Shown one piece after another: positions 3,257 through 61,587 of a DNA stretch of 64,000 nt. Position 1 is the stretch's first letter; the number at the start of each line of letters is the position of its first letter. The translations under genes and the position numbers were made by a program. The DNA is taken from UHGV virus genome UHGV-0248979. The stretch is one strand, 5' to 3'. Source of the DNA: a virus. Below the pieces are notes generated by a model, which saw nothing but the letters and a program-made list of their open reading frames with translations, had not been told where the DNA came from and ran no database searches.

Positions 3257-3307
3257 TATCTTAAATCCTTAAAATGAAAGTTAAAGAAATATCGGGGGAG
3301 GTTACCA

Positions 3308-10540: not shown

Positions 10541-11086
10541 TTAGAGGTGTTTTCCGATAACTTCCGAAACTAATTCGTAAAGGTCATCGTCACTGCACAC
10601 GTCTACGCTAATTCCGATATCGATACTACGACTGCGGAACCCTACTTTGAGCGTTTTACCGAATTCGGTTTGTAGGGCTTTATAGAGTCTATTCTTATCT
10701 TCTTTAAAGAGAGGAACAGGTAGTCTAACAGTGAACTTGTAATGTTCTTTCGAAACAAGTTCGTTAGAATAATTAAAACGTTTAGCCACACGAGTTCCGA
10801 TAATCTGTGTTATCAGCTTAAACATTTCTTCGTCGCTATACGGTGTTGCACCATAACCGATATCAATAGAATTTCTACGGAATCCTGCGCAGAATAATGC
10901 ACCGAATTGCTCACGGAATTCTTTGTGTAGAATATCTTTTTCTACGTCCCACAGCCCGTAACCCAAGTCAATCGTGAATTTGTATTTTTCTTTGTCGACT
11001 AATTCGTTAGTGTAATCAAGTCTAGTGAAGTTCATGGTATATTCTCCTAAAATGGTTTCGTTAAGTGAGAGTAACTGAACTCTCAC
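10541..11086 (-). CDS. hypothetical protein built from two tandem ~85-aa repeats
   Basis: Internal duplication (NELVDKEKYKFT...SIDIGYG vs NELVSKEHYKFT...SIDIGIS); likely true start is the ATG near 11035 (MNFTRLDY) with an AGGAG RBS. Confidence 0.6.
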   Translation of the reverse strand: MRVQLLSLNETILGEYTMNFTRLDYTNELVDKEKYKFTIDLGYGLWDVEKDILHKEFREQFGALFCAGFRRNSIDIGYGATPYSDEEMFKLITQIIGTRVAKRFNYSNELVSKEHYKFTVRLPVPLFKEDKNRLYKALQTEFGKTLKVGFRSRSIDIGISVDVCSDDDLYELVSEVIGKHL

Positions 11087-11106
11087 CTAGGTAATATATA
11101 TCTGAA
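11080..11106 (-). promoter_or_regulatory. conserved phage promoter element, copy 1
   Basis: Minus-strand TTCAGATATATATTACCTAGGTGAGAG followed by an 8-bp-stem hairpin, about 45-70 nt upstream of a start codon. Confidence 0.55.
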
Positions 11107-11116
11107 AATATTTTTA

Positions 11117-15276: not shown

Positions 15277-15323
15277 CTAATCCTCCTTTTCGGCTATAAC
15301 TAATGGAGTGAACGTAAATTTCA

Positions 15324-15350
15324 CTCTCTCCTAGGTAATATATATCTGAG
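15324..15350 (-). promoter_or_regulatory. conserved phage promoter element, copy 2
   Basis: Minus-strand CTCAGATATATATTACCTAGGAGAGAG plus a downstream hairpin. Confidence 0.55.
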
Positions 15351-15356
15351 AAAAAA

Positions 15357-34349: not shown

Positions 34350-34397
34350 GGTAATACTCCTTTAGGTTAACAAGTCGGTGTAAAGAGTTAATTGTAA

Positions 34398-34424
34398 CTC
34401 TCACCTAAGTAATATATATCTGAG
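34398..34424 (-). promoter_or_regulatory. conserved phage promoter element, copy 3
   Basis: Minus-strand CTCAGATATATATTACTTAGGTGAGAG plus a downstream hairpin. Confidence 0.55.
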
Positions 34425-34468
34425 AAAAAATAAAATATAGGTACCACCGTTGGGTGGTACCTAAGCGG

Positions 34469-54749: not shown

Positions 54750-57044
54750 TTACTTACCGGCAGCAGCTTTGCCTTCGCCAGCAACGTTACCTGCTACACC
54801 ACCTTCGGTTTGTTTCTGACCGTTCTGTTCAACAGAAACATTGTAAGCCAGTTTTTCTTCAACCAGTTTGGTGATGCCTTTAACCCAGATCAGACCAGTG
54901 ATCGGGCAGTGGCAGATGTGCGCGTTACGCGGCTGTACGGCCAGCTCTTTAGAGGTAGAGCCGTTACGCTGAATGTTGATGTTAGTAACCATGATCGGAG
55001 ACCAGAAGTGGTTACCCCAGTTCAGCACGTTGTAGGAACCATCGTCCGCAGTCGGAACTTTCAGGAACCATTGCAGACGACGAGTCCAGGAACCGTCAGC
55101 TGCGTTGTAGATACGCCAGCGGTCATCGTTGGTGGTGATCACTTCGTATTCGTAGCGATCGCCCAGCAGACGTTGGTCGCCCTGTACCAGCAGCAGCATG
55201 GATGCAGTCGGTTCGTCGGTTGCAATAACAACCTTCGGCAGAATGTCCGGATCAGCAGTGTACAGACGCAGCGCAGGAATGAAGCGAGATTCCTGGATAG
55301 CCTGAGTTACCTGATTACCGATACGCTGTACCAGACCCTGACGAGCGTTGATCAGTGCTTCTTTGGTATCCAGGGACTGTACAACTTTATCAACGTTGTA
55401 GTCAGACTCTTTGAACCACGGAGCAACCCAGTGACGGCCCAGACCACGAATGGCCGGTTTGTCCCACGGAGTGATCATGCTTGCAGCAGCGTTACGTACC
55501 GCTTCGGTGTAAGACAGTGTCTGAGTGATAGCCAACTGTTCGTTACGGATGTTAACTGCGGAAATCAGGTCGTCCAGACGCTCGGTATCGTCGTATTCAA
55601 CGCCAACCGGAGACTTGGTCAGAATCGGAGAACCGTATTGCAGCTTGTAGTTTTCTTGTTCCCAGATTGGGTCGAGCAGCAGACCCTGGGTACGACGGTT
55701 TTCGTTGGTACGAGTACCATCGAAACGCCAGCCGATCAGTTCAAGTTTCAGATTTTCCAGGACAGCTTTGCCGGTACCAGTCTTAATATCAACTTTGTTA
55801 CCGGTAGCGTCGTACAGACCTTCGATTTCCAGTTTGTGACCAGCGATGTCAACTTTACCACCGAACTGACCGGTAGTGAACAGAGACATGTTGATGGTGA
55901 TCACATAACGCAGGGTGTAGGAGTTCTGTTCCAGTGTTTTCAGAGCCGGAATAGCTTCGCCTTTCCAGTCGGTAGTTTTCGCGTTCAGAGAGAACGCAGT
56001 ACGACGGAATTGCAGTACCAGCTCACGGCCATCACCTTCAGCAGGGCGCTGGAAGGTTGCGAACTGCATGTCGCGAACGTGCAGTTTAATGAATTTACCT
56101 GCTTTTGCATCTTCAGCCGCTTTACGTACGGAAATCAGCAGGCTGCCCAGAGCACAGCCCGGCGCGATTTCATCAGTTTCGTCGTAACCTTCGATTACGA
56201 TACCCGGATGCGCGGACAGCTGGAACAGGTTCAGAGTGTCTTTAGCAAAGCTCAGGTAGTTAGTCGGGTACGGAGGTACACGACCCAGACGAACAGATTC
56301 GTTCGGTACCAGATCTTCGCTTACGAAGTATTCAGCGTTTTCACCGGTTTCCATTACGTAAGGAACGATGTTGATCGCTTCGTCCTGGAGAACAGTGTGG
56401 TCAGTCAGCGCTTCATGTAAGTTACGACGATGATCTTCAACAACGTCTTTGCTCAGCAGTGCGTTCATTACACCGCGAGAAACGGTGGTCACTTTGGTAC
56501 GTACGGTAATACCAACATCGTTAGTGTCAACAGTGATGGTCGGGAACAGAGTCTCAGCAAAACGAGACTGGGTTTCCAGAGCACGTACGTTCAGCGTCCA
56601 GGTCAGACCCAGGTTTTTGTCGTAGTCTTTGTTGGTGTAGTATTCCTGAGCGACAACCATACGCTCTTTGCCCCAGTCGCCGTTACCAGCTTGGGAGCCA
56701 GGAATCGCAACGTCCAGGTTAAAACGGCTATGGAATTCCGGTTTAGCGTATTCTTGAGCTACTTTTTCTTGCAGGTCCATACCGTGACCAGCAGCACCCA
56801 GAATCATTGCAGAAGCAACTTCCGCAGCGTGGGACATTTTCTTACCGCCAGCAAACGCGTTTGCGTAGTGCTGTGCAGCGTCGTCACGCAGGGTACCAAA
56901 AACTTTAGTGTTGCTACGTACAGATTCACCAGCAACGATGGTGTTCCACATTTCGCCAGCAGTGTTGTTACTAATGACGCTTTGTACCAGCGAGTTACCA
57001 GCTTGTACGAGTTTCTCCAGATTAGAGATTCGGGTATCTTTCAT
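54750..57044 (-). CDS. major virion structural protein, probable major capsid protein
   Basis: 764 aa; codon usage visibly distinct (GC-rich third positions, CTG/CGT/GGT/CAG) as in very highly expressed genes; flanked by strong terminators. Capsid versus sheath not resolved. Confidence 0.45.
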   Translation of the reverse strand: MKDTRISNLEKLVQAGNSLVQSVISNNTAGEMWNTIVAGESVRSNTKVFGTLRDDAAQHYANAFAGGKKMSHAAEVASAMILGAAGHGMDLQEKVAQEYAKPEFHSRFNLDVAIPGSQAGNGDWGKERMVVAQEYYTNKDYDKNLGLTWTLNVRALETQSRFAETLFPTITVDTNDVGITVRTKVTTVSRGVMNALLSKDVVEDHRRNLHEALTDHTVLQDEAINIVPYVMETGENAEYFVSEDLVPNESVRLGRVPPYPTNYLSFAKDTLNLFQLSAHPGIVIEGYDETDEIAPGCALGSLLISVRKAAEDAKAGKFIKLHVRDMQFATFQRPAEGDGRELVLQFRRTAFSLNAKTTDWKGEAIPALKTLEQNSYTLRYVITINMSLFTTGQFGGKVDIAGHKLEIEGLYDATGNKVDIKTGTGKAVLENLKLELIGWRFDGTRTNENRRTQGLLLDPIWEQENYKLQYGSPILTKSPVGVEYDDTERLDDLISAVNIRNEQLAITQTLSYTEAVRNAAASMITPWDKPAIRGLGRHWVAPWFKESDYNVDKVVQSLDTKEALINARQGLVQRIGNQVTQAIQESRFIPALRLYTADPDILPKVVIATDEPTASMLLLVQGDQRLLGDRYEYEVITTNDDRWRIYNAADGSWTRRLQWFLKVPTADDGSYNVLNWGNHFWSPIMVTNINIQRNGSTSKELAVQPRNAHICHCPITGLIWVKGITKLVEEKLAYNVSVEQNGQKQTEGGVAGNVAGEGKAAAGK

Positions 57045-57594: not shown

Positions 57595-59157
57595 ATGAAT
57601 AACAAAATGATGTTGATAACCGCCTTAGCCACATTATACGCTGAAAGTCTTCTGACCGATCCTGAAAAGGACCACGACATCATAAGAAAAGTGCTGTTAG
57701 AGGCTAAGCTTCCTGATTACGCAGAGGAAGGTGACGAACGTGCCGCCCTCGTCGAAATCAAGGATATCATCACATCCATCATAGACGGCGGTATGCCTTA
57801 CGACCACACAAACGTCATGAAACGTTTGAAACTGGCCACTACGCAAATACGTCCTCTATACGATACGATTACCAAATTCCTGGAAGATGATATTCCAGAA
57901 GAACCAGAAGCACGCATCGAGCATCTTAATCGCCAAGTAGCACAATACTACTTTCAGTTACGTCAAGCTATTCAAGGCGTACAACTGAAACAAAAATTGG
58001 GTCGTACGTTAGGCGCACTGAACGGTACCGAAACGCGCGTTGATTTACAAACGGCGCTCAACGACCTTAAGGATACCTTATCCACGTTCAGTGAACGCTC
58101 TCATAATAAGATTCCTTCTCTGGTAGGGGAATTGATTACTGATAATAAAGCACCTTTCGTGCACGTTTTCGACTCTATCAGTAAGAAAGCGGCAGGGAAC
58201 GGGTTGCGTACAGGCTGGAAAGCAATTAACCAGATGCTCGGTTGTAACAAAGGGATCACCGAAGAACTCTGGCTGATGCCTGCTCTCCCCTTTAACTGTA
58301 AGTCATTATTCAGTTTATTGCTCTCTATTAGCATTCCTGTTTTCAACACCCCAGAAAAAGTGATGGCGAATGTTAAAGGTGATCTACAACCGGTTATTCT
58401 AGATTTAAGTTTAGAAAACGAATTGGATGTTAACTTGGCTTACGCGTATCAGGCACTTTACGGACACTTTGAAGGTACAGCCCCGGTGATGGTTGCGCCA
58501 GAAACCGCAACTGACGAAGAAAAAGCGTCACATAATGCACAAATGTCAGACTACCTCTGTAGTAAGATGCGGGCGAACGGTTGGGAGTATATTTTCCAAA
58601 AACACACAAACTCCGATTTTAAAATTCACTATTTGAACGATTTGATTTTAGATTTAAAACGTCGAGGTTATCATGTAGCTGGAATACGCGGAGACTATTT
58701 CGGTACTATCAGCAAAGCAGGGCACGGTAACGGCATTGCGGGTAGCGACATTAAAGAAATTTATCGTATCGCACGAAACATCCAAGTGGTACGTAATCGT
58801 GGTTTCCTGTTAGCACCACACCAAATCTCACCAGAAGGCAAAAAATTAAAAGCACTCGACCCAGCAAGTTTCTGTAAGAACTTACCTGGTCGTGGTCTTT
58901 ACGACAACTGCTCTAGCTTAGACAACGAAGCTGACGGTGAGATGTATTTTAACAAACGTGTCGTCAACGGTCACAGCTATTTAGAAGTACAACGCGGTAA
59001 ACACCGTACCATTATCGATACCAAAGAAGCTTATCATTATACTGTAATACCTTTCCGTGATGTTGGCATTTTGCCATGGGATTGTGATAAAGAAGAAACT
59101 GTAACAGCCTCGTCGATTAACGTATTTACCGGCGGCATGGGTGACGAACTCTTTTGA
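57595..59157 (+). CDS. hypothetical large protein (possible virion or assembly protein)
   Basis: 520-aa ORF diverging from the minus-strand block. Confidence 0.65.
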   Translation: MNNKMMLITALATLYAESLLTDPEKDHDIIRKVLLEAKLPDYAEEGDERAALVEIKDIITSIIDGGMPYDHTNVMKRLKLATTQIRPLYDTITKFLEDDIPEEPEARIEHLNRQVAQYYFQLRQAIQGVQLKQKLGRTLGALNGTETRVDLQTALNDLKDTLSTFSERSHNKIPSLVGELITDNKAPFVHVFDSISKKAAGNGLRTGWKAINQMLGCNKGITEELWLMPALPFNCKSLFSLLLSISIPVFNTPEKVMANVKGDLQPVILDLSLENELDVNLAYAYQALYGHFEGTAPVMVAPETATDEEKASHNAQMSDYLCSKMRANGWEYIFQKHTNSDFKIHYLNDLILDLKRRGYHVAGIRGDYFGTISKAGHGNGIAGSDIKEIYRIARNIQVVRNRGFLLAPHQISPEGKKLKALDPASFCKNLPGRGLYDNCSSLDNEADGEMYFNKRVVNGHSYLEVQRGKHRTIIDTKEAYHYTVIPFRDVGILPWDCDKEETVTASSINVFTGGMGDELF

Positions 59158-59299
59158 GTCTGGGGAGCTTCGGCTCCCCCTATAACCCCTTATGCGTCTC
59201 GAAAAGCAAAAAAAAACAGAAGGCTATTAATTATGAACGGAAAACAACTACCGAACTAAGTAGGGGGTGTTGCTACCACCCCCTTTATTAGTTAGTAAC

Positions 59300-59461
59300 T
59301 TATCTCCTTAGAGGTGGTTGCTGAACATTGTGGTTGTTAACCGTTTTCGGTGCCGCAACGAGGCCGAGACGAACATATTCGTCCATGCGTTGGTTAAACT
59401 GAATTTGTTTTTCACGATTTCGCATCGCGGTATTGAACATCTGTATTTGATATTCGTTCAT
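59300..59461 (-). CDS. small protein sORF-A (53 aa), member of a three-gene tandem family
   Basis: Not in the ORF track (below cutoff); ATG with upstream purine-rich RBS; shares QR..EY..LG...KP pattern with sORF-B and sORF-C. Confidence 0.55.
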   Translation of the reverse strand: MNEYQIQMFNTAMRNREKQIQFNQRMDEYVRLGLVAAPKTVNNHNVQQPPLRR

Positions 59462-59550
59462 TTTTCATTACCTTTCGTAATGTTGTAAAAACGTCAACAA
59501 CTTTATGTGTTGACACCGTACAGCAGAGACTGGCGGAACAGCCTCTGCTG

Positions 59551-59578
59551 CTTTAACTTCTCTTTCGAAAAGTTAAAG
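59551..59578. promoter_or_regulatory. conserved hairpin element, copy 1 (ctttaacttctctttcgaaaagttaaag)
   Basis: 9-bp stem / 10-nt loop, flanked by GC-rich hairpins at 59521-59550 and 59584-59609. Confidence 0.5.
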
Positions 59579-59685
59579 CTATGAAAAGGGGTGGTGGTGC
59601 ACCCCTTTTTATTATACCTACGACCACCATCTCGGCAGGTTACTGTACGAGGAGGAGAGGCGTGTCAGCGCCTCTCCTTTATTTG

Positions 59686-59859
59686 TTAGTAGTGTTCACT
59701 CCTCTTTTCGGTGAATATCTGCGTGAAACGGTTGGTAGACGGTTTTAACCGTTTATCCATGCCGAGCTGACTATACTTGTAGATACGTTGCTGTAAATTG
59801 GTCTTTGCTGCACTCTGTTCTGCAAGCATTTTGTCAGTAAAGTAGTAACCATTGTTCAT
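59686..59859 (-). CDS. small protein sORF-B (57 aa), tandem family member
   Basis: ATG with AGAGGG RBS; C-terminus QIFTEKRSEHY matches sORF-C QIFTERRSNY through synonymous codon changes. Confidence 0.6.
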   Translation of the reverse strand: MNNGYYFTDKMLAEQSAAKTNLQQRIYKYSQLGMDKRLKPSTNRFTQIFTEKRSEHY

Positions 59860-59949
59860 GGTAGGCCCTCTTTGTAGGGTGATTAAAGAAATCCACTACG
59901 GAAACGTAATGGTGTTGTAAAGGGGTGTGACAGCACCCCTTTATTTTAT

Positions 59950-60120
59950 TTAGTAGTTACTTCTCCTTTCGGTGAAGATTTGTACTCGAGGATTATTAGA
60001 AGGTTTAAGCCTTTTATTTAATCCTAGCTGTTGAACTTCTCTTAATCGTTCATTAAACCTCGCTTGTTCTGCATAGCTGTTTGAAATAGAAGTAAAGATA
60101 CGTGAATTGTTGTTAGTCAT
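59950..60120 (-). CDS. small protein sORF-C (56 aa), tandem family member
   Basis: ATG with GAGG RBS; conserved LG(M/L)(D/N)KRLKPS...QIFTE core. Confidence 0.6.
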   Translation of the reverse strand: MTNNNSRIFTSISNSYAEQARFNERLREVQQLGLNKRLKPSNNPRVQIFTERRSNY

Positions 60121-60205
60121 GTTAAAACCTCACACGAGTTGGGGATTAAGCTATTACGTGACTGTAATAGCGACAAGTAGGGACTGCTGGTACAGCCCCT
60201 ACTGC

Positions 60206-60233
60206 TTTATCTTCTCTTTCGAAAAGATAAAGC
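60206..60233. promoter_or_regulatory. conserved hairpin element, copy 2 (ctttatcttctctttcgaaaagataaag)
   Basis: Same loop as copy 1 with a compensatory A/T to T/A change in the stem; flanked by GC-rich hairpins at 60177-60205 and 60235-60267. Confidence 0.5.
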
Positions 60234-60454
60234 GCCTAAGGGGAGTGCGCCAACACACCCCTTTAGGTTGTTACCTTCTTTCAACTATCAACTGGATGTT
60301 TCTTGGGTATGCAACCTTGGGCTACGTTAACGTTGGTCGCGGTATTGCACTAACCCTTCGCTGAAACTCAAGTTGTTTTGTTGACAACTCGTTTAACCGT
60401 CGAAACAGCAGTTCATGTTTCGTGAACTCATCTCCTATGTCGAATTTGCGAAAA

Positions 60455-60502
60455 TAAATAAAGTGTACCCCTAATCCCGAAAAGGATTAGGGGTTGCTTT
60501 TA
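60455..60502. terminator. hairpin terminator
   Basis: Hairpin cccctaatcc-cgaaa-aggattagggg followed by TTGCTTTTATTT. Confidence 0.6.
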
Positions 60503-61315
60503 TTTAGTCGCTACGTATTGAACATGGCCACATTCCTTACATTCCACGTTGGCTTTCGGGATTGTCAGGCCGGTTAAAGGAACACGTATTTGATACTGTG
60601 CTCCACATTCTTCACAAACAAAATCGTATTCTGGATAAACACGACCTTCTAATTTCTCTTCTTTCCTTAGTGTGCCTGCTAAGAACAGCATTGCGCCTAA
60701 CGCTTCATTAATCTGCTGTTCCCATTCTCCGTCTAACGGGTAAGCGAACGCGCGAGTCAACGTTTCCACCATCTCTGGAGTATTACTTACATAAACGTGT
60801 TTCAGTTCAAACTCAACACGTTCTAAACCAAACAATACGCGCGCCGTCACCGTAACATTATCCAACGTTTGTGCAAACACAACGGGATTATCGTCACCGT
60901 GCATTGCGAATAACGCAGCACGTTCGTATTCGATATCACTCCACTCGATTAGTTCTACAGATTTAATCGCTTCCGCAATCTCAGCATTACCGAACGTTTC
61001 GTGTTCCAATAATCCGACGATAACTTCATTCAACGATTTCAATTGCTGTAATCGAATCGTAGGATCGGTATTCACGATAAGTAAACGATGCATTCTGGAT
61101 TTCAACCAGTTAATCGTTCCTTCTACACCGCCCCTAAACGAGCAGATGCTTATCACTTCAGGTTCACGAAGGATAAGAGTAGATTTTCCTGCTGCCGTAC
61201 TCAAGTAGAGTTTAAAAGACTTATCGTTAGACTCTGCAACGATGGCAATGTCTTCAGTTGGAACGAAGTTTTCATTGCTCAGCCCACGCGGAAAATAATC
61301 TTTAATAGTAATCAT
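60500..61315 (-). CDS. hypothetical protein with C-terminal CxxC...CxxC pair
   Basis: 271 aa; C-terminal CEECGAQ...CKECGH zinc-ribbon-like motif. Confidence 0.6.
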   Translation of the reverse strand: MITIKDYFPRGLSNENFVPTEDIAIVAESNDKSFKLYLSTAAGKSTLILREPEVISICSFRGGVEGTINWLKSRMHRLLIVNTDPTIRLQQLKSLNEVIVGLLEHETFGNAEIAEAIKSVELIEWSDIEYERAALFAMHGDDNPVVFAQTLDNVTVTARVLFGLERVEFELKHVYVSNTPEMVETLTRAFAYPLDGEWEQQINEALGAMLFLAGTLRKEEKLEGRVYPEYDFVCEECGAQYQIRVPLTGLTIPKANVECKECGHVQYVATK

Positions 61316-61370
61316 CTTTTATGCTCCAATTAATAAAAAAATTAAGGGCACCCGAAGGTGCCTTATACAT

Positions 61371-61514
61371 TAACCACGACCAGTGCACTGTGCAACGGAA
61401 TTACCGTTGTCGATGCAAGTGTCGTAGCCTTTGTCGATATCCAGGTACAGGCAACCCAGAACAACAGCGATAACAACAGCGAAGATAGCTTTTTTGTGTT
61501 TTACAGAAATCATG
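61371..61514 (-). CDS. small signal-peptide/lipoprotein-like peptide (47 aa), unannotated
   Basis: ATG with AGGAG RBS directly downstream of promoter copy 4; MISVKHKKAIFAVVIAVVLG-C then a Cys-containing ~27-aa mature part; optimal-looking codons. Confidence 0.5.
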
Positions 61515-61559
61515 ATATAACTCCTAATTAGGTATTCGATAAATGAGTATTACGTAAAC

Positions 61560-61587
61560 TCTCACCTAGGTAATATATATCTGAAAT
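61560..61587 (-). promoter_or_regulatory. conserved phage promoter element, copy 4
   Basis: Minus-strand TTCAGATATATATTACCTAGGTGAGAG, about 50 nt upstream of the 47-aa sORF. Confidence 0.55.

What the first reader, a model, noticed from the sequence alone, without database searches (positions are those of the whole stretch)
59160..60500. Unannotated array of three small-protein genes interleaved with covarying hairpin modules
The 1.3 kb region between two structural-gene blocks has no ORF above the track cutoff but holds three minus-strand sORFs (53, 57 and 56 aa) with RBSs and a shared core (QR..EY..LG(M/L)(D/N)KRLKPS...QIFTE(K/R)RS). Differences between B and C at the C-terminus are synonymous (cag/caa, ata/atc, aag/agg), so they are under coding selection. 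Between them sit repeated three-hairpin modules. The middle hairpin occurs twice (59551-59578 and 60206-60233) with identical loop ctctttcgaaaag and a compensatory A/T to T/A swap in the stem, which preserves pairing and argues for a structured RNA element or symmetric operator. The small proteins could be host-takeover or anti-defence factors.
Basis: partly seen in the sequence, partly recalled or inferred. Interest (0 to 1): 0.7.

Follow-up and report, generated by a model that had tools for sequence, protein, structure and literature searches.

The report
Shuffling small-gene cassettes in jumbo phage
A phiKZ-like giant phage carries a fast-rearranging row of duplicated genes for ~55-residue helical proteins of unknown function, separated by stable RNA stem-loops that most likely act as transcription stops and insulators; this is a real but fairly ordinary kind of phage "accessory gene" hot spot.

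Summary
Three minus-strand sORFs exist: A 59300-59461, B 59686-59859 and C 59950-60120. All have good ribosome-binding sites and are under purifying selection (dN/dS about 0.1). Two copies of a three-hairpin module also exist.

The genome is an SPN3US-like, phiKZ-type jumbo phage. The flanks are not structural genes. They are a DnaB-like helicase and the homolog of the essential non-virion SPN3US gp70, and they converge on the array.

The sORFs belong to a narrow family of uncharacterised proteins. It includes the annotated SPN3US gp71/gp72 (PHROG 18219) and occurs in 0 to 3 intact copies at this exact spot. Near-identical phages carry different subsets (E, C, B, D, A, F), which indicates duplication and deletion.

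The hairpins pair best as sense (minus-strand) RNA: 100% of cells pair, with 7 compensated pairs. "hp3" is the terminator-like hairpin of the preceding cassette. In distant relatives, the position of hp2 holds the U-tract/A-tract palindrome between two back-to-back terminators.

My best reading is a hyperplastic cassette array with compound bidirectional terminator/insulator modules, analogous to T4 PeSL regions. The function of the proteins is unknown.

The parts
59162..59179 (+). Hairpin GGGGAGC-UUCG-GCUCCCC directly after the helicase stop. It is probably a 3' stabiliser or terminator of the plus-strand helicase mRNA and marks the boundary of the array.
   Evidence: Sequence. The stem covaries and the UUCG/UACG/UUAG loop is kept in relatives with 74-85% aa identity.
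59190..59216 (+). Conserved TTATGCGTC, then a spacer, then an A9 element of unknown role. It is also present in relatives that lack the array.
   Evidence: Alignment of post-helicase sequences. The motif is not enriched in the window.
59262..59284 (.). tA: GC-rich terminator-like hairpin after sORF A, with the better U-tract on the plus strand.
59300..59461 (-). sORF A (53 aa). It is the most conserved family member and is present in all clade genomes examined.
   Evidence: dN/dS is 0.11-0.15 and codon-position differences are 6/2/15.
59466..59514 (-). Leader of A, made of two parts. The first is a small hairpin (59466-59482) with the SD in its loop. The second is hairpin hpZ (59493-59514), whose invariant loop reads CTTTATG on the plus strand.
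59522..59549 (-). hp1, copy 2: an 11-bp stem with a 6-nt loop. The stem sequence is free and the pairs covary.
59550..59579 (-). hp2, copy 2: GCUUUAACUUUUC-GAAA-GAGAAGUUAAAGC, with 13 bp including one U.G. The sequence is nearly invariant.
59581..59612 (.). hp3, copy 2, which is tD: the bidirectional terminator-like hairpin of the lost cassette D (A5-GGGGUG..CACCCC-U4/U5).
59618..59648 (-). ψD: a 3' remnant (…YSNLPRWWS*) of paralog D, which is intact as a 61-aa gene in L004 and L029.
59653..59678 (.). tB: terminator-like hairpin after sORF B.
59686..59859 (-). sORF B (57 aa).
   Evidence: It is identical in L005.
59893..59912 (-). hpY: leader hairpin of B.
59918..59943 (.). tC: terminator-like hairpin after sORF C.
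59950..60120 (-). sORF C (56 aa).
   Evidence: Core dN/dS is 0.10. AF2 predicts a helix over residues 2-35.
60150..60171 (-). hpX: leader hairpin of C.
60176..60203 (-). hp1, copy 1.
60204..60233 (-). hp2, copy 1, carrying the A-U to U-A swap at pair 7/24.
60235..60267 (.). hp3, copy 1, which is the hairpin after ψE.
60271..60423 (-). ψE: a decayed fourth paralog. The start is ATG to ACG, there is a premature CAG to TAG stop, and substitutions are spread almost evenly over codon positions (8/9/13).
   Evidence: The intact 52-aa E is in L007, L021 and L026.
60467..60494 (.). T1: a strong bidirectional terminator that ends the upstream minus-strand operon.
61558..61586 (-). Context: an early-promoter-like element, TTTCAGATATATATTACCTAGGTGAGAG. 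It heads the operon (47-aa and 271-aa genes) that runs into T1 and the array.
   Evidence: There are four copies in the window. It is conserved at the syntenic site in SPN3US, phiEaH2, Asesino and others. It fits the description of early promoters in PMC7598289.

Best explanation
The region is a hyperplastic tandem array of paralogous cassettes. It sits at the distal end of a presumably early minus-strand operon, between two convergent transcription units of an SPN3US-like chimallivirus.

Each cassette has a structured leader with an exposed Shine-Dalgarno sequence, a gene for a 50-60-aa protein, and a GC-rich stem-loop. The protein is mostly helical and basic, with a Q/R-rich F(N/Q)(Q/E)R helix core, a Pro-containing linker and a short hydrophobic-basic C-terminus.

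The 'three-hairpin module' is a compound boundary element. hp3 is the 3' hairpin of the upstream cassette and acts as a sense terminator/attenuator and 3'-end protector. hp1 is an oppositely oriented terminator for antisense (plus-strand) transcription coming from the helicase side. hp2 is the palindromic U-rich/A-rich tract between them, which in read-through sense RNA folds into a 13-bp hairpin.

The modules insulate the cassettes, attenuate transcription in both directions and stabilise the small mRNAs. Because they are repeated, they also provide homology for deletion and duplication, so closely related phages carry different cassette subsets.

The proteins are dispensable accessory factors. 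Their target is unknown, and I infer they act by binding a host or phage partner through the amphipathic helix.

Shown: coding selection, family membership, cassette turnover, pairing and covariation, and strand preference.

Inferred: terminator/insulator function, early timing, and the accessory role.
For: Genes:
- ORFs and RBSs are present.
- dN/dS is 0.11-0.15 for A and 0.10 for the C core, against 0.03 for the helicase and 0.11-0.16 for the gp70 homolog.
- Codon-position bias is 6/2/15, against 8/9/13 for the pseudogene.

Family:
- 67 clusters, all on 220-250 kb jumbo-phage contigs, with no Pfam domain.
- SPN3US gp71/gp72 lie at the syntenic site and belong to PHROG 18219.
- The profile-profile link has probability 86% and E 5e-6. 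Type F bridges the two C-terminal motifs.
- The family is absent in phiEaH2, Asesino and L009, so it is dispensable.

Turnover:
- Seven arrangements were found: ψE-C-B-ψD-A, ψB-D-A, ψC-B-ψD-A, E-C-ψB-A, E-A (twice) and F-A.
- Among 24 contigs that encode the identical protein A, 15 are C-B-A, 7 are B-A and 2 are D-A.
- The E-A junction lies within the module.

Hairpins:
- Sense-strand folds are better: -51.1 against -46.7 and -55.9 against -47.1 kcal/mol.
- All 192 of 192 cells pair, 7 pairs are compensated, and 0 of 500 shuffles reach this.
- In hp1 and hp2, all non-Watson-Crick pairs are G.U on the sense strand.
- There are 8 terminator-like sites against 1.6 expected, including hp1(+).
- tE and tF in L026 and L027 have canonical U5-U6 tracts on the sense strand.
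- Distant relatives have the same layout of T1, AT palindrome and GC hairpin in front of their sORF, with weak covariance-model hits there.
- The same CUUUAACUUU tail follows another GC hairpin at about 3290.

Operon context: a conserved early-promoter-like element is present (PMC7598289).
Against: - Sense-strand U-tracts after tA, tB and tC are weak. Most of these hairpins look like better plus-strand terminators.
- Other convergent junctions in this genome manage with a single bidirectional hairpin.
- The strict sequence conservation of hp2, its fixed orientation and its restriction to this array are more than a U/A tract needs.
- No promoter was found for the cassettes behind the terminators.
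- Termination signals of chimallivirus RNA polymerases are not established.
- Loop inversions show that template switching could generate 'compensated' stems without selection.
- There is no expression data.
Confidence: 0.6

Rival explanations
1. PeSL-like composite. The module is a terminator (hp3) followed by a promoter for a phage RNA polymerase located in the AT-rich hp2/hp1 segment. Each cassette would then be its own transcription unit, starting just before the leader hairpin.
For: - hp2 is the only sequence-conserved, AT-rich piece between a terminator-like hairpin and the next RBS.
- The spacing from the end of hp1 to the ATG is 54-61 nt in four non-homologous leaders. This resembles the 55-59 nt from TATTAC to the ATG, with a 5' hairpin, at the four early-promoter-like elements.
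- phiKZ middle promoters are only a weak AT-rich motif (PMC7598289).
- The analogy with PeSLs is close in layout and in evolutionary behaviour (PMC2839356).
Against: - There is no similarity to the phage's own early element and no sigma-70 match.
- hp2 occurs nowhere else in genomes of about 220 kb, whereas promoters recur.
- B in the window, A in L007, and E and F everywhere lack hp2-hp1 upstream yet stay intact.
Confidence: 0.2
2. hp2 is a specific recognition site for a protein, either as an RNA hairpin or as a DNA palindrome/operator. The protein could be one of the small basic helical proteins themselves, which would give autoregulation or mRNA targeting.
For: - There is sequence-level conservation in at least 12 distinct copies. 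Only one pair varies, while the abutting hp1 drifts freely (0/13 against 6/11 pairs changed for L005a).
- hp2 never inverts, although neighbouring loops flip at least 8 times.
- There is an invariant U.G and a GAAA/GAAAA loop, in the style of lambda boxB.
- The proteins are helical and rich in Arg, Lys and Gln.
Against: - The loop is not conserved as GNRA: CAAA and CGAA variants are common.
- Family members in SPN3US, L011 and L014 have no hp2.
- The proteins have too few arginines for a classical arginine-rich motif.
- A in L007 lacks the module.
- A composition constraint from U/A tracts on both strands also limits change.
Confidence: 0.1
3. The modules encode small plus-strand RNAs (hp1, hp2, hp3 and then a U-run), made antisense to the cassette boundaries. 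One example would run about 105 nt from the TATG motif at 59505 to the U-run at about 59615.
For: - On the plus strand the order of hairpins, hairpins, then a GC hairpin with UUUUUAUUAU is a classic sRNA layout.
- The invariant CTTTATG(Y)GT loop upstream carries the phiKZ late-promoter core TATG (PMC7598289).
Against: - hp1 and hp2 have A.C and C.A mismatches on the plus strand where the minus strand has G.U. Plus-strand folds are 4-9 kcal/mol weaker.
- Copy 1 has no TATG upstream.
- The motif is not enriched.
- There is no Rfam match.
Confidence: 0.05
4. The hairpins have no function of their own. They are inherited terminator debris and quasi-palindromes kept perfect by intrastrand template switching, so the 'covariation' is a mutational artefact.
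For: - At least 8 loops are reverse-complemented between near-identical genomes (T1, tB, tC, tE, hp1 three times, tB').
- hp2-hp1 is missing upstream of some intact sORFs.
Against: - Retained G.U pairs are found only on the sense strand in hp1 and hp2.
- hp2 shows zero change between lineages with dS of about 0.6.
- Every cassette keeps a 3' hairpin and a leader hairpin despite sequence turnover.
Confidence: 0.1

Closest known systems
PeSL (promoter-early stem-loop) cassettes in the hyperplastic regions of T4-type phages (Arbiol et al. 2010, PMC2839356; Comeau et al. 2014, PMC4122927)
   Same: Both have small ORFs of unknown function in a hypervariable region. Each ORF is bounded by an AT-rich stretch containing stop codons, a G-run/C-run stem-loop and an SD. 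Repeated boundary motifs coincide with indels between very close relatives. The stems tolerate G-T pairs.
   Different: There is no sigma-70 or phage-early promoter in the module, and the phage uses its own RNA polymerases. There are only 1-2 copies per genome, confined to one locus, instead of about 50. The ORFs are paralogs of one family rather than unrelated ORFans. An extra conserved palindrome (hp2) is present. Mini-circles were not tested.
SPN3US gp71/gp72 (SPN3US_0071/0072; RefSeq gp195/gp194), PHROG 18219
   Same: They share the locus (between the gp70 homolog and helicase gp73), the strand and the size. They share the helix core F(N/Q)QR(V/L), the Pro linker and the hydrophobic-basic C-terminus, and they are tandem paralogs with hairpins between them.
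   Different: The window's types A to E share only 11-19% identity with them and fall below PHROG thresholds. The C-terminal motif is QIFTE(K/R)RS rather than KGLGGEI(I/L)FNK. SPN3US lacks hp2.
Bidirectional or back-to-back intrinsic terminators at convergent gene ends
   Same: GC-rich stems are flanked by an A-tract and a U-tract. They lie between convergent units, and there is a U-tract/A-tract palindrome between two hairpins in SPN3US, L011 and L014.
   Different: Here the unit is multiplied inside an array. The central tract has become a fixed 30-nt palindrome with G/C positions and an invariant U.G. Sense U-tracts are often weak.
Bacterial REP/BIME intergenic palindromes
   Same: Both are clustered imperfect palindromes after genes. 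They act as mRNA 3' protectors or attenuators and as substrates for rearrangement.
   Different: There is no genome-wide dispersal, no RAYT-type transposase and no REP consensus.

Membership tests
SPN3US gp71/gp72 small-protein family (PHROG 18219 and relatives) | Significant sequence or profile similarity | tested here: inconclusive
   A joint profile recovers both subfamilies (67 clusters). hhalign between the subfamilies gives probability 86% and E 5e-6, but over only 24 helix columns. Direct PHROG scans give no hit for A, B, C or D, and E = 0.09-0.11 for F and E.
SPN3US gp71/gp72 small-protein family (PHROG 18219 and relatives) | Same genomic position, strand and size, as tandem paralogs downstream of the gp70 homolog and facing the helicase | tested here: met
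PeSL regulatory cassettes (T4-type phages) | Strong early promoter (sigma-70 consensus) inside the motif | tested here: not met
   There is no sigma-70-type site in the modules and no copy of the phage's own early element within 4 mismatches.
PeSL regulatory cassettes (T4-type phages) | Stable stem-loop acting as terminator or attenuator, placed between small ORFs | tested here: inconclusive
   Stable GC-rich stem-loops follow every sORF. Terminator activity was not measured.
PeSL regulatory cassettes (T4-type phages) | Many copies concentrated in hyperplastic regions, with indels between close relatives at the motifs | tested here: inconclusive
   Indels are abundant and one junction (E-A) lies in the module. 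However, there are only 1-2 copies per genome, and other junctions are microhomology deletions elsewhere.
Rho-independent (intrinsic) terminators | GC-rich hairpin immediately followed by a U-tract on the transcribed strand | tested here: inconclusive
   This is met on the plus strand for tA, tB, tC, tD, T1 and hp1 of copy 2. It is met on the minus strand for T1, hpY, and tE/tF in L026/L027. It is weak on the minus strand for tA, tB and tC. The requirements of the phage RNA polymerase are unknown.
Integron-like gene cassettes (attC sites) | Site-specific recombinase, and cassette junctions at a fixed position in a structured site | tested here: not met
   There is no integrase in the neighbourhood. 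Deletion junctions sit at varied microhomologies, not at one site.
Type I toxin-antitoxin (small toxin plus antisense RNA) | Small hydrophobic membrane peptide with an overlapping antisense sRNA | tested here: not met
   The proteins are hydrophilic and helical, with no transmembrane segment. The only Rfam hit is SymR at E = 1.3, far below the gathering score.
Known RNA families (Rfam 15) | Covariance-model match at the gathering score | tested here: not met
   The best hits have E of 0.08 or worse and scores far below gathering. There are no tRNA or tmRNA genes.

The most novel reading that the evidence does not exclude
hp2 is not just a terminator tract. It is a dedicated, orientation-specific recognition element that defines a self-duplicating 'small protein plus RNA hairpin' cassette in chimalliviruses. 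Two versions are possible. In one, the helical basic proteins bind their own hp2 hairpin, as an N/boxB-like pair controlling read-through or mRNA fate. In the other, a phage factor uses hp2 to drive cassette shuffling as a diversity-generating hot spot for host-interaction peptides.
Probability: 0.08. Interest if true: 0.7.

Novelty: new variant of a known kind. Interest (0 to 1): 0.35.

Why it matters
If this reading is right, the locus is a compact and abundant natural example of how a nucleus-forming jumbo phage gains, loses and diversifies tiny accessory genes. Protein A alone is listed in 244 collection blocks, on many ~225-kb gut-metagenome contigs. It gives a defined family of ~50-aa proteins to test for host-takeover or anti-defence activity. 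Comparing natural variants (E, C, B, D, A, F) would be informative.

The locus also offers candidate termination/insulation signals for chimallivirus RNA polymerases, whose terminators are poorly defined. It is also a cautionary case: compensatory-looking stem changes occur alongside frequent hairpin-loop inversions.

It does not by itself open a long-standing question.

Tried and rejected
- Megablast of the region against phage records found nothing. tblastn with sORF C found nothing even at E of 10 or less.
- Rfam at E of 10 or less gave only noise. There are no tRNAs.
- Pfam, PHROGs and NCBIfam gave no hits for A, B or C. A PDB profile search found none.
- AF2 gave only a long helix (pLDDT 72.7, pTM 0.38), so no fold search was worthwhile.
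- A generic tally of G.U against A.C over all stems, including coding-region and stem-base extensions, was uninformative at 16 against 12. Only the curated intergenic hairpins show the sense-strand bias.
- I looked for hp2 or its half-site elsewhere in the window and in IMG/VR. It occurs only in the array of this clade.
- I tested TTATG(Y)GT as a possible late-promoter consensus. It is not enriched.
- I rejected an integron-like site-specific cassette model because the junctions are heterogeneous microhomologies.
- I rejected type I toxin-antitoxin because the peptides are hydrophilic.
- I rejected an RNase III site because the single stems of 11-13 bp are too short (my own knowledge of RNase III substrates, not tested).
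- The SPN3US infection proteomics paper (J Virol 2019) is not held in the library. gp71 and gp72 are not mentioned in the SPN3US papers that are held.
Full report
**1. What is there**

The window comes from a phiKZ-like jumbo phage. It has a PhiKZ-type major capsid protein at 54750-57044 (PF25620, E 5e-209). The nearest annotated relatives are SPN3US, phiEaH2 and Asesino, at about 85% aa identity in the helicase.

The finding lies between two convergent genes. On the left is a divergent DnaB-like ATPase (57595-59157, plus strand; PF20307). On the right is a 271-aa zinc-ribbon protein (60500-61315, minus strand). The zinc-ribbon protein is the distant syntenic homolog of SPN3US gp70 (21% identity, E 1e-10, same CxxC…CxxC end). 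gp70 is essential and non-virion (PMC5105663).

The three minus-strand sORFs exist exactly as described and have good Shine-Dalgarno sequences. The region has 8 terminator-like hairpins against 1.6 ± 1.3 expected. The 58-nt repeat at 59522-59579 and 60176-60233 (84% identity) comprises two abutting hairpins, hp1 and hp2. Each copy has a GC-rich hairpin, hp3, next to it.

**2. The sORFs are real genes of a small, narrow family**

Relatives whose helicase is 97-100% identical at the protein level have different arrays. Orthologous comparisons give:
- A: dN/dS 0.11-0.15 at dS about 0.55-0.73.
- C core: dN/dS 0.10.
- Helicase: 0.03. gp70 homolog: 0.11-0.16.

Differences by codon position are 6/2/15 for A and 4/0/6 for the C core.

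SPN3US has two annotated 48-aa genes, SPN3US_0071 and 0072, at the same place and on the same strand. They form PHROG 18219, of unknown function.

A profile of all types finds 67 clusters. All are on 220-250-kb contigs from E. coli, Shigella, Salmonella, Erwinia or their phages. All are 'hypothetical' and have no Pfam domain.

The two subfamilies are linked in three ways: by hhalign (probability 86%, E 5e-6 over the helix core), by synteny, and by a bridging type F (…RFQERL…KFGEMVFERKSF) found in an Enterobacter record.

The shared layout is an N-terminal amphipathic helix with an F/Y-(N/Q)-(Q/E)-R core, a proline-containing linker, and a short hydrophobic-then-basic C-terminus. AF2 gives a confident helix for residues 2-35 and little else. 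No solved structure or named family matches.

phiEaH2, Asesino and L009 have no copy, so the family is dispensable.

**3. The array is in flux**

The window also contains ψE (60271-60423). Relative to the intact 52-aa gene of L007, L021 and L026, its start codon is ATG to ACG and a CAG has become TAG. Its substitutions are spread almost evenly over codon positions, 8/9/13.

The window also holds a 31-nt stump of paralog D (59618-59648), which is intact in L004 and L029.

The arrangements seen, in minus-strand order, are:
- ψE-C-B-ψD-A (the window)
- ψB-D-A (L004)
- ψC-B-ψD-A (L005)
- E-C-ψB-A (L007)
- E-A (L021 and L026)
- F-A (L027)

Among 24 long contigs that encode the identical protein A, 15 are C-B-A, 7 are B-A and 2 are D-A.

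The E-A junction lies inside the hp3-hp2-hp1 module. This is compatible with homologous recombination between module copies. Other junctions are short microhomologies at varied places, so there is no sign of site-specific recombination.

**4. The hairpins**

As minus-strand (sORF-sense) RNA, the two modules fold to -51.1 and -55.9 kcal/mol (z -8.3 and -7.5). As plus-strand RNA they fold to -46.7 and -47.1.

On eight copies from five genomes:
- All 192 cells pair.
- Seven pairs carry double changes, six in hp1 and one in hp2.
- No shuffle or slid register approaches this result.

All non-Watson-Crick pairs in hp1 and hp2 are G.U on the sense strand. Counting the leader hairpins, I count roughly seven sense-strand G.U events against one in the other direction. 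That is suggestive, not decisive.

hp2 (GCUUUAWCUUUUC-loop-GAGAAGWUAAAGC) is nearly invariant in at least 12 distinct copies, with loops GAAA, CAAA, CGAA and GAAAA. hp1 keeps an 11-bp stem with a 6-nt loop while its sequence drifts.

hp2 occurs only in this array, in only four IMG/VR contigs, and nowhere else in the window.

'hp3' is simply the 3' hairpin of the preceding cassette: tD in copy 2 and the ψE hairpin in copy 1.

**5. Where the module comes from**

In SPN3US, L011 and L014, the sORF is preceded by three elements in order:
- the operon terminator T1 with its U-tract;
- an AT palindrome (UUUAUUUUC-G(C)AAA-GAAAAUAAA);
- a second GC-rich hairpin.

The palindrome is the U-tract of a sense terminator paired with the A-tract of an oppositely oriented terminator. 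That A-tract is the U-tract on the other strand. A covariance model of hp2-hp1 hits these places weakly (L014 E 0.002; L011 0.27).

hp2 has the same inner sequence style (…UUUUC-GAAA-GA(G)AA…). The tool flags hp1(+) of copy 2 with its tail CUUUAACUUC as terminator-like. The same CUUUAACUUU tail follows another GC hairpin near 3290. tE and tF in L026 and L027 carry canonical U5-U6 tracts on the sense strand.

I therefore read hp3-hp2-hp1 as a compound bidirectional terminator/insulator that was duplicated together with the sORFs.

Caveats:
- Other convergent junctions in the window use one hairpin.
- Several sense U-tracts are weak.
- hp2's fixed sequence and orientation go beyond what a U/A tract requires.

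**6. Transcriptional context**

A 28-nt element, TTTCAGATATATATTACCTAGGTGAGAG, occurs four times in the window. Each copy is on the minus strand, about 55-59 nt before a start codon. It is conserved at the syntenic site in SPN3US, phiEaH2, Asesino and more distant relatives.

It fits the published description of jumbo-phage early promoters as highly conserved AT-rich ~10-mers near -10 (PMC7598289). The copy at about 61581 heads the operon that ends at T1 just before the array. No such element and no sigma-70-type site lies within the array.

The sORFs would therefore be expressed either by read-through or from promoters I cannot recognise. This is inference.

**7. Comparison with known systems**

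The closest analogue in behaviour and layout is the PeSL cassette of T4-type hyperplastic regions (PMC2839356; PMC4122927). The defining promoter was tested and not found, and copy number and distribution differ. So this works like a PeSL region but is not a member.

It is not an integron-like array, not a type I toxin-antitoxin and not any Rfam family (see the membership tests).

The proteins are new subfamilies of an existing uncharacterised family.

**8. Verdict**

The locus is a genuine, rapidly evolving array of small accessory genes with structured boundary modules. It is a new variant of a known kind, of moderate interest. The unexplained residue is hp2's strict conservation and fixed orientation.

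Noticed in passing
window 60467-60494 (T1), 59653-59678 (tB), 59918-59943 (tC), 59522-59549 (hp1); compare L004, L005, L007, L021, L026, L028, L029: The 6-nt loops of otherwise identical hairpins are reverse-complemented between near-identical genomes in at least 8 cases. Examples are T1 TTTTCG against CGAAAA, tC CTGTCA against TGACAG, tB CTGACA against TGTCAG, and hp1 TTCCGC against GCGGAA. This flip-flop suggests frequent intrastrand template switching or cruciform-mediated inversion in this phage population. hp2 never flips.
   Followed up: partly
window 59162-59216; L001-L003, L009, L011-L013, L016 just after the helicase stop: A conserved unit sits downstream of the helicase even in phages without the array. 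It has a covarying hairpin with a UUCG/UACG/UUAG tetraloop and no U-tract, then (G/T)TTATG(C/T)GTCC, then A8-A10. The same TTATG(Y)GT is the invariant loop of the hairpin upstream of sORF A (59503-59510). The motif is not enriched in the window (5 found, 6.5 expected).
   Followed up: partly
window about 11076-11107, 15320-15351, 34394-34425, 61558-61586 (minus strand): There are four copies of a T-rich stretch followed by TCAGATATATATTACCTAGGTGAGAG. Each is followed by a 5' hairpin, with the RBS and start codon about 55-59 nt downstream. The element is conserved at syntenic sites across SPN3US-like and Erwinia jumbo phages. It is a strong candidate for the early (virion RNAP) promoter consensus of this group.
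   Followed up: partly
L026 (NZ_CP173450.1, E. coli 98232, 221,873 bp, circular) and L027 (NZ_CP134650.1, Enterobacter ludwigii, 222,441 bp, circular): Complete genomes of this jumbo-phage clade are deposited as 'plasmids' of clinical or wildlife Enterobacterales isolates. This hints at a carrier state or co-purified phage. PGAP annotated only sORF A there and missed the intact E (52 aa) and F (51 aa) genes.
   Followed up: partly
window 61370-61513 (minus strand): A 47-aa ORF lies between the early-promoter-like element and the gp70 homolog. It has a hydrophobic segment and a conserved C-terminus, …NGNSVAQCTGRG. It is conserved in distant relatives (L013, L016, L017) and annotated in RefSeq as WP_262880969.1, hypothetical.
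   Followed up: no
window 59950-60003 against L007 6153-6206 (N-terminal 18 codons of sORF C): The N-terminal 18 codons of C are almost saturated with replacements (dN about 0.49; 7/8/10 by codon position), while the rest of the gene has dN/dS of 0.10. This indicates either a recombinant N-terminus or diversifying selection.
   Followed up: no
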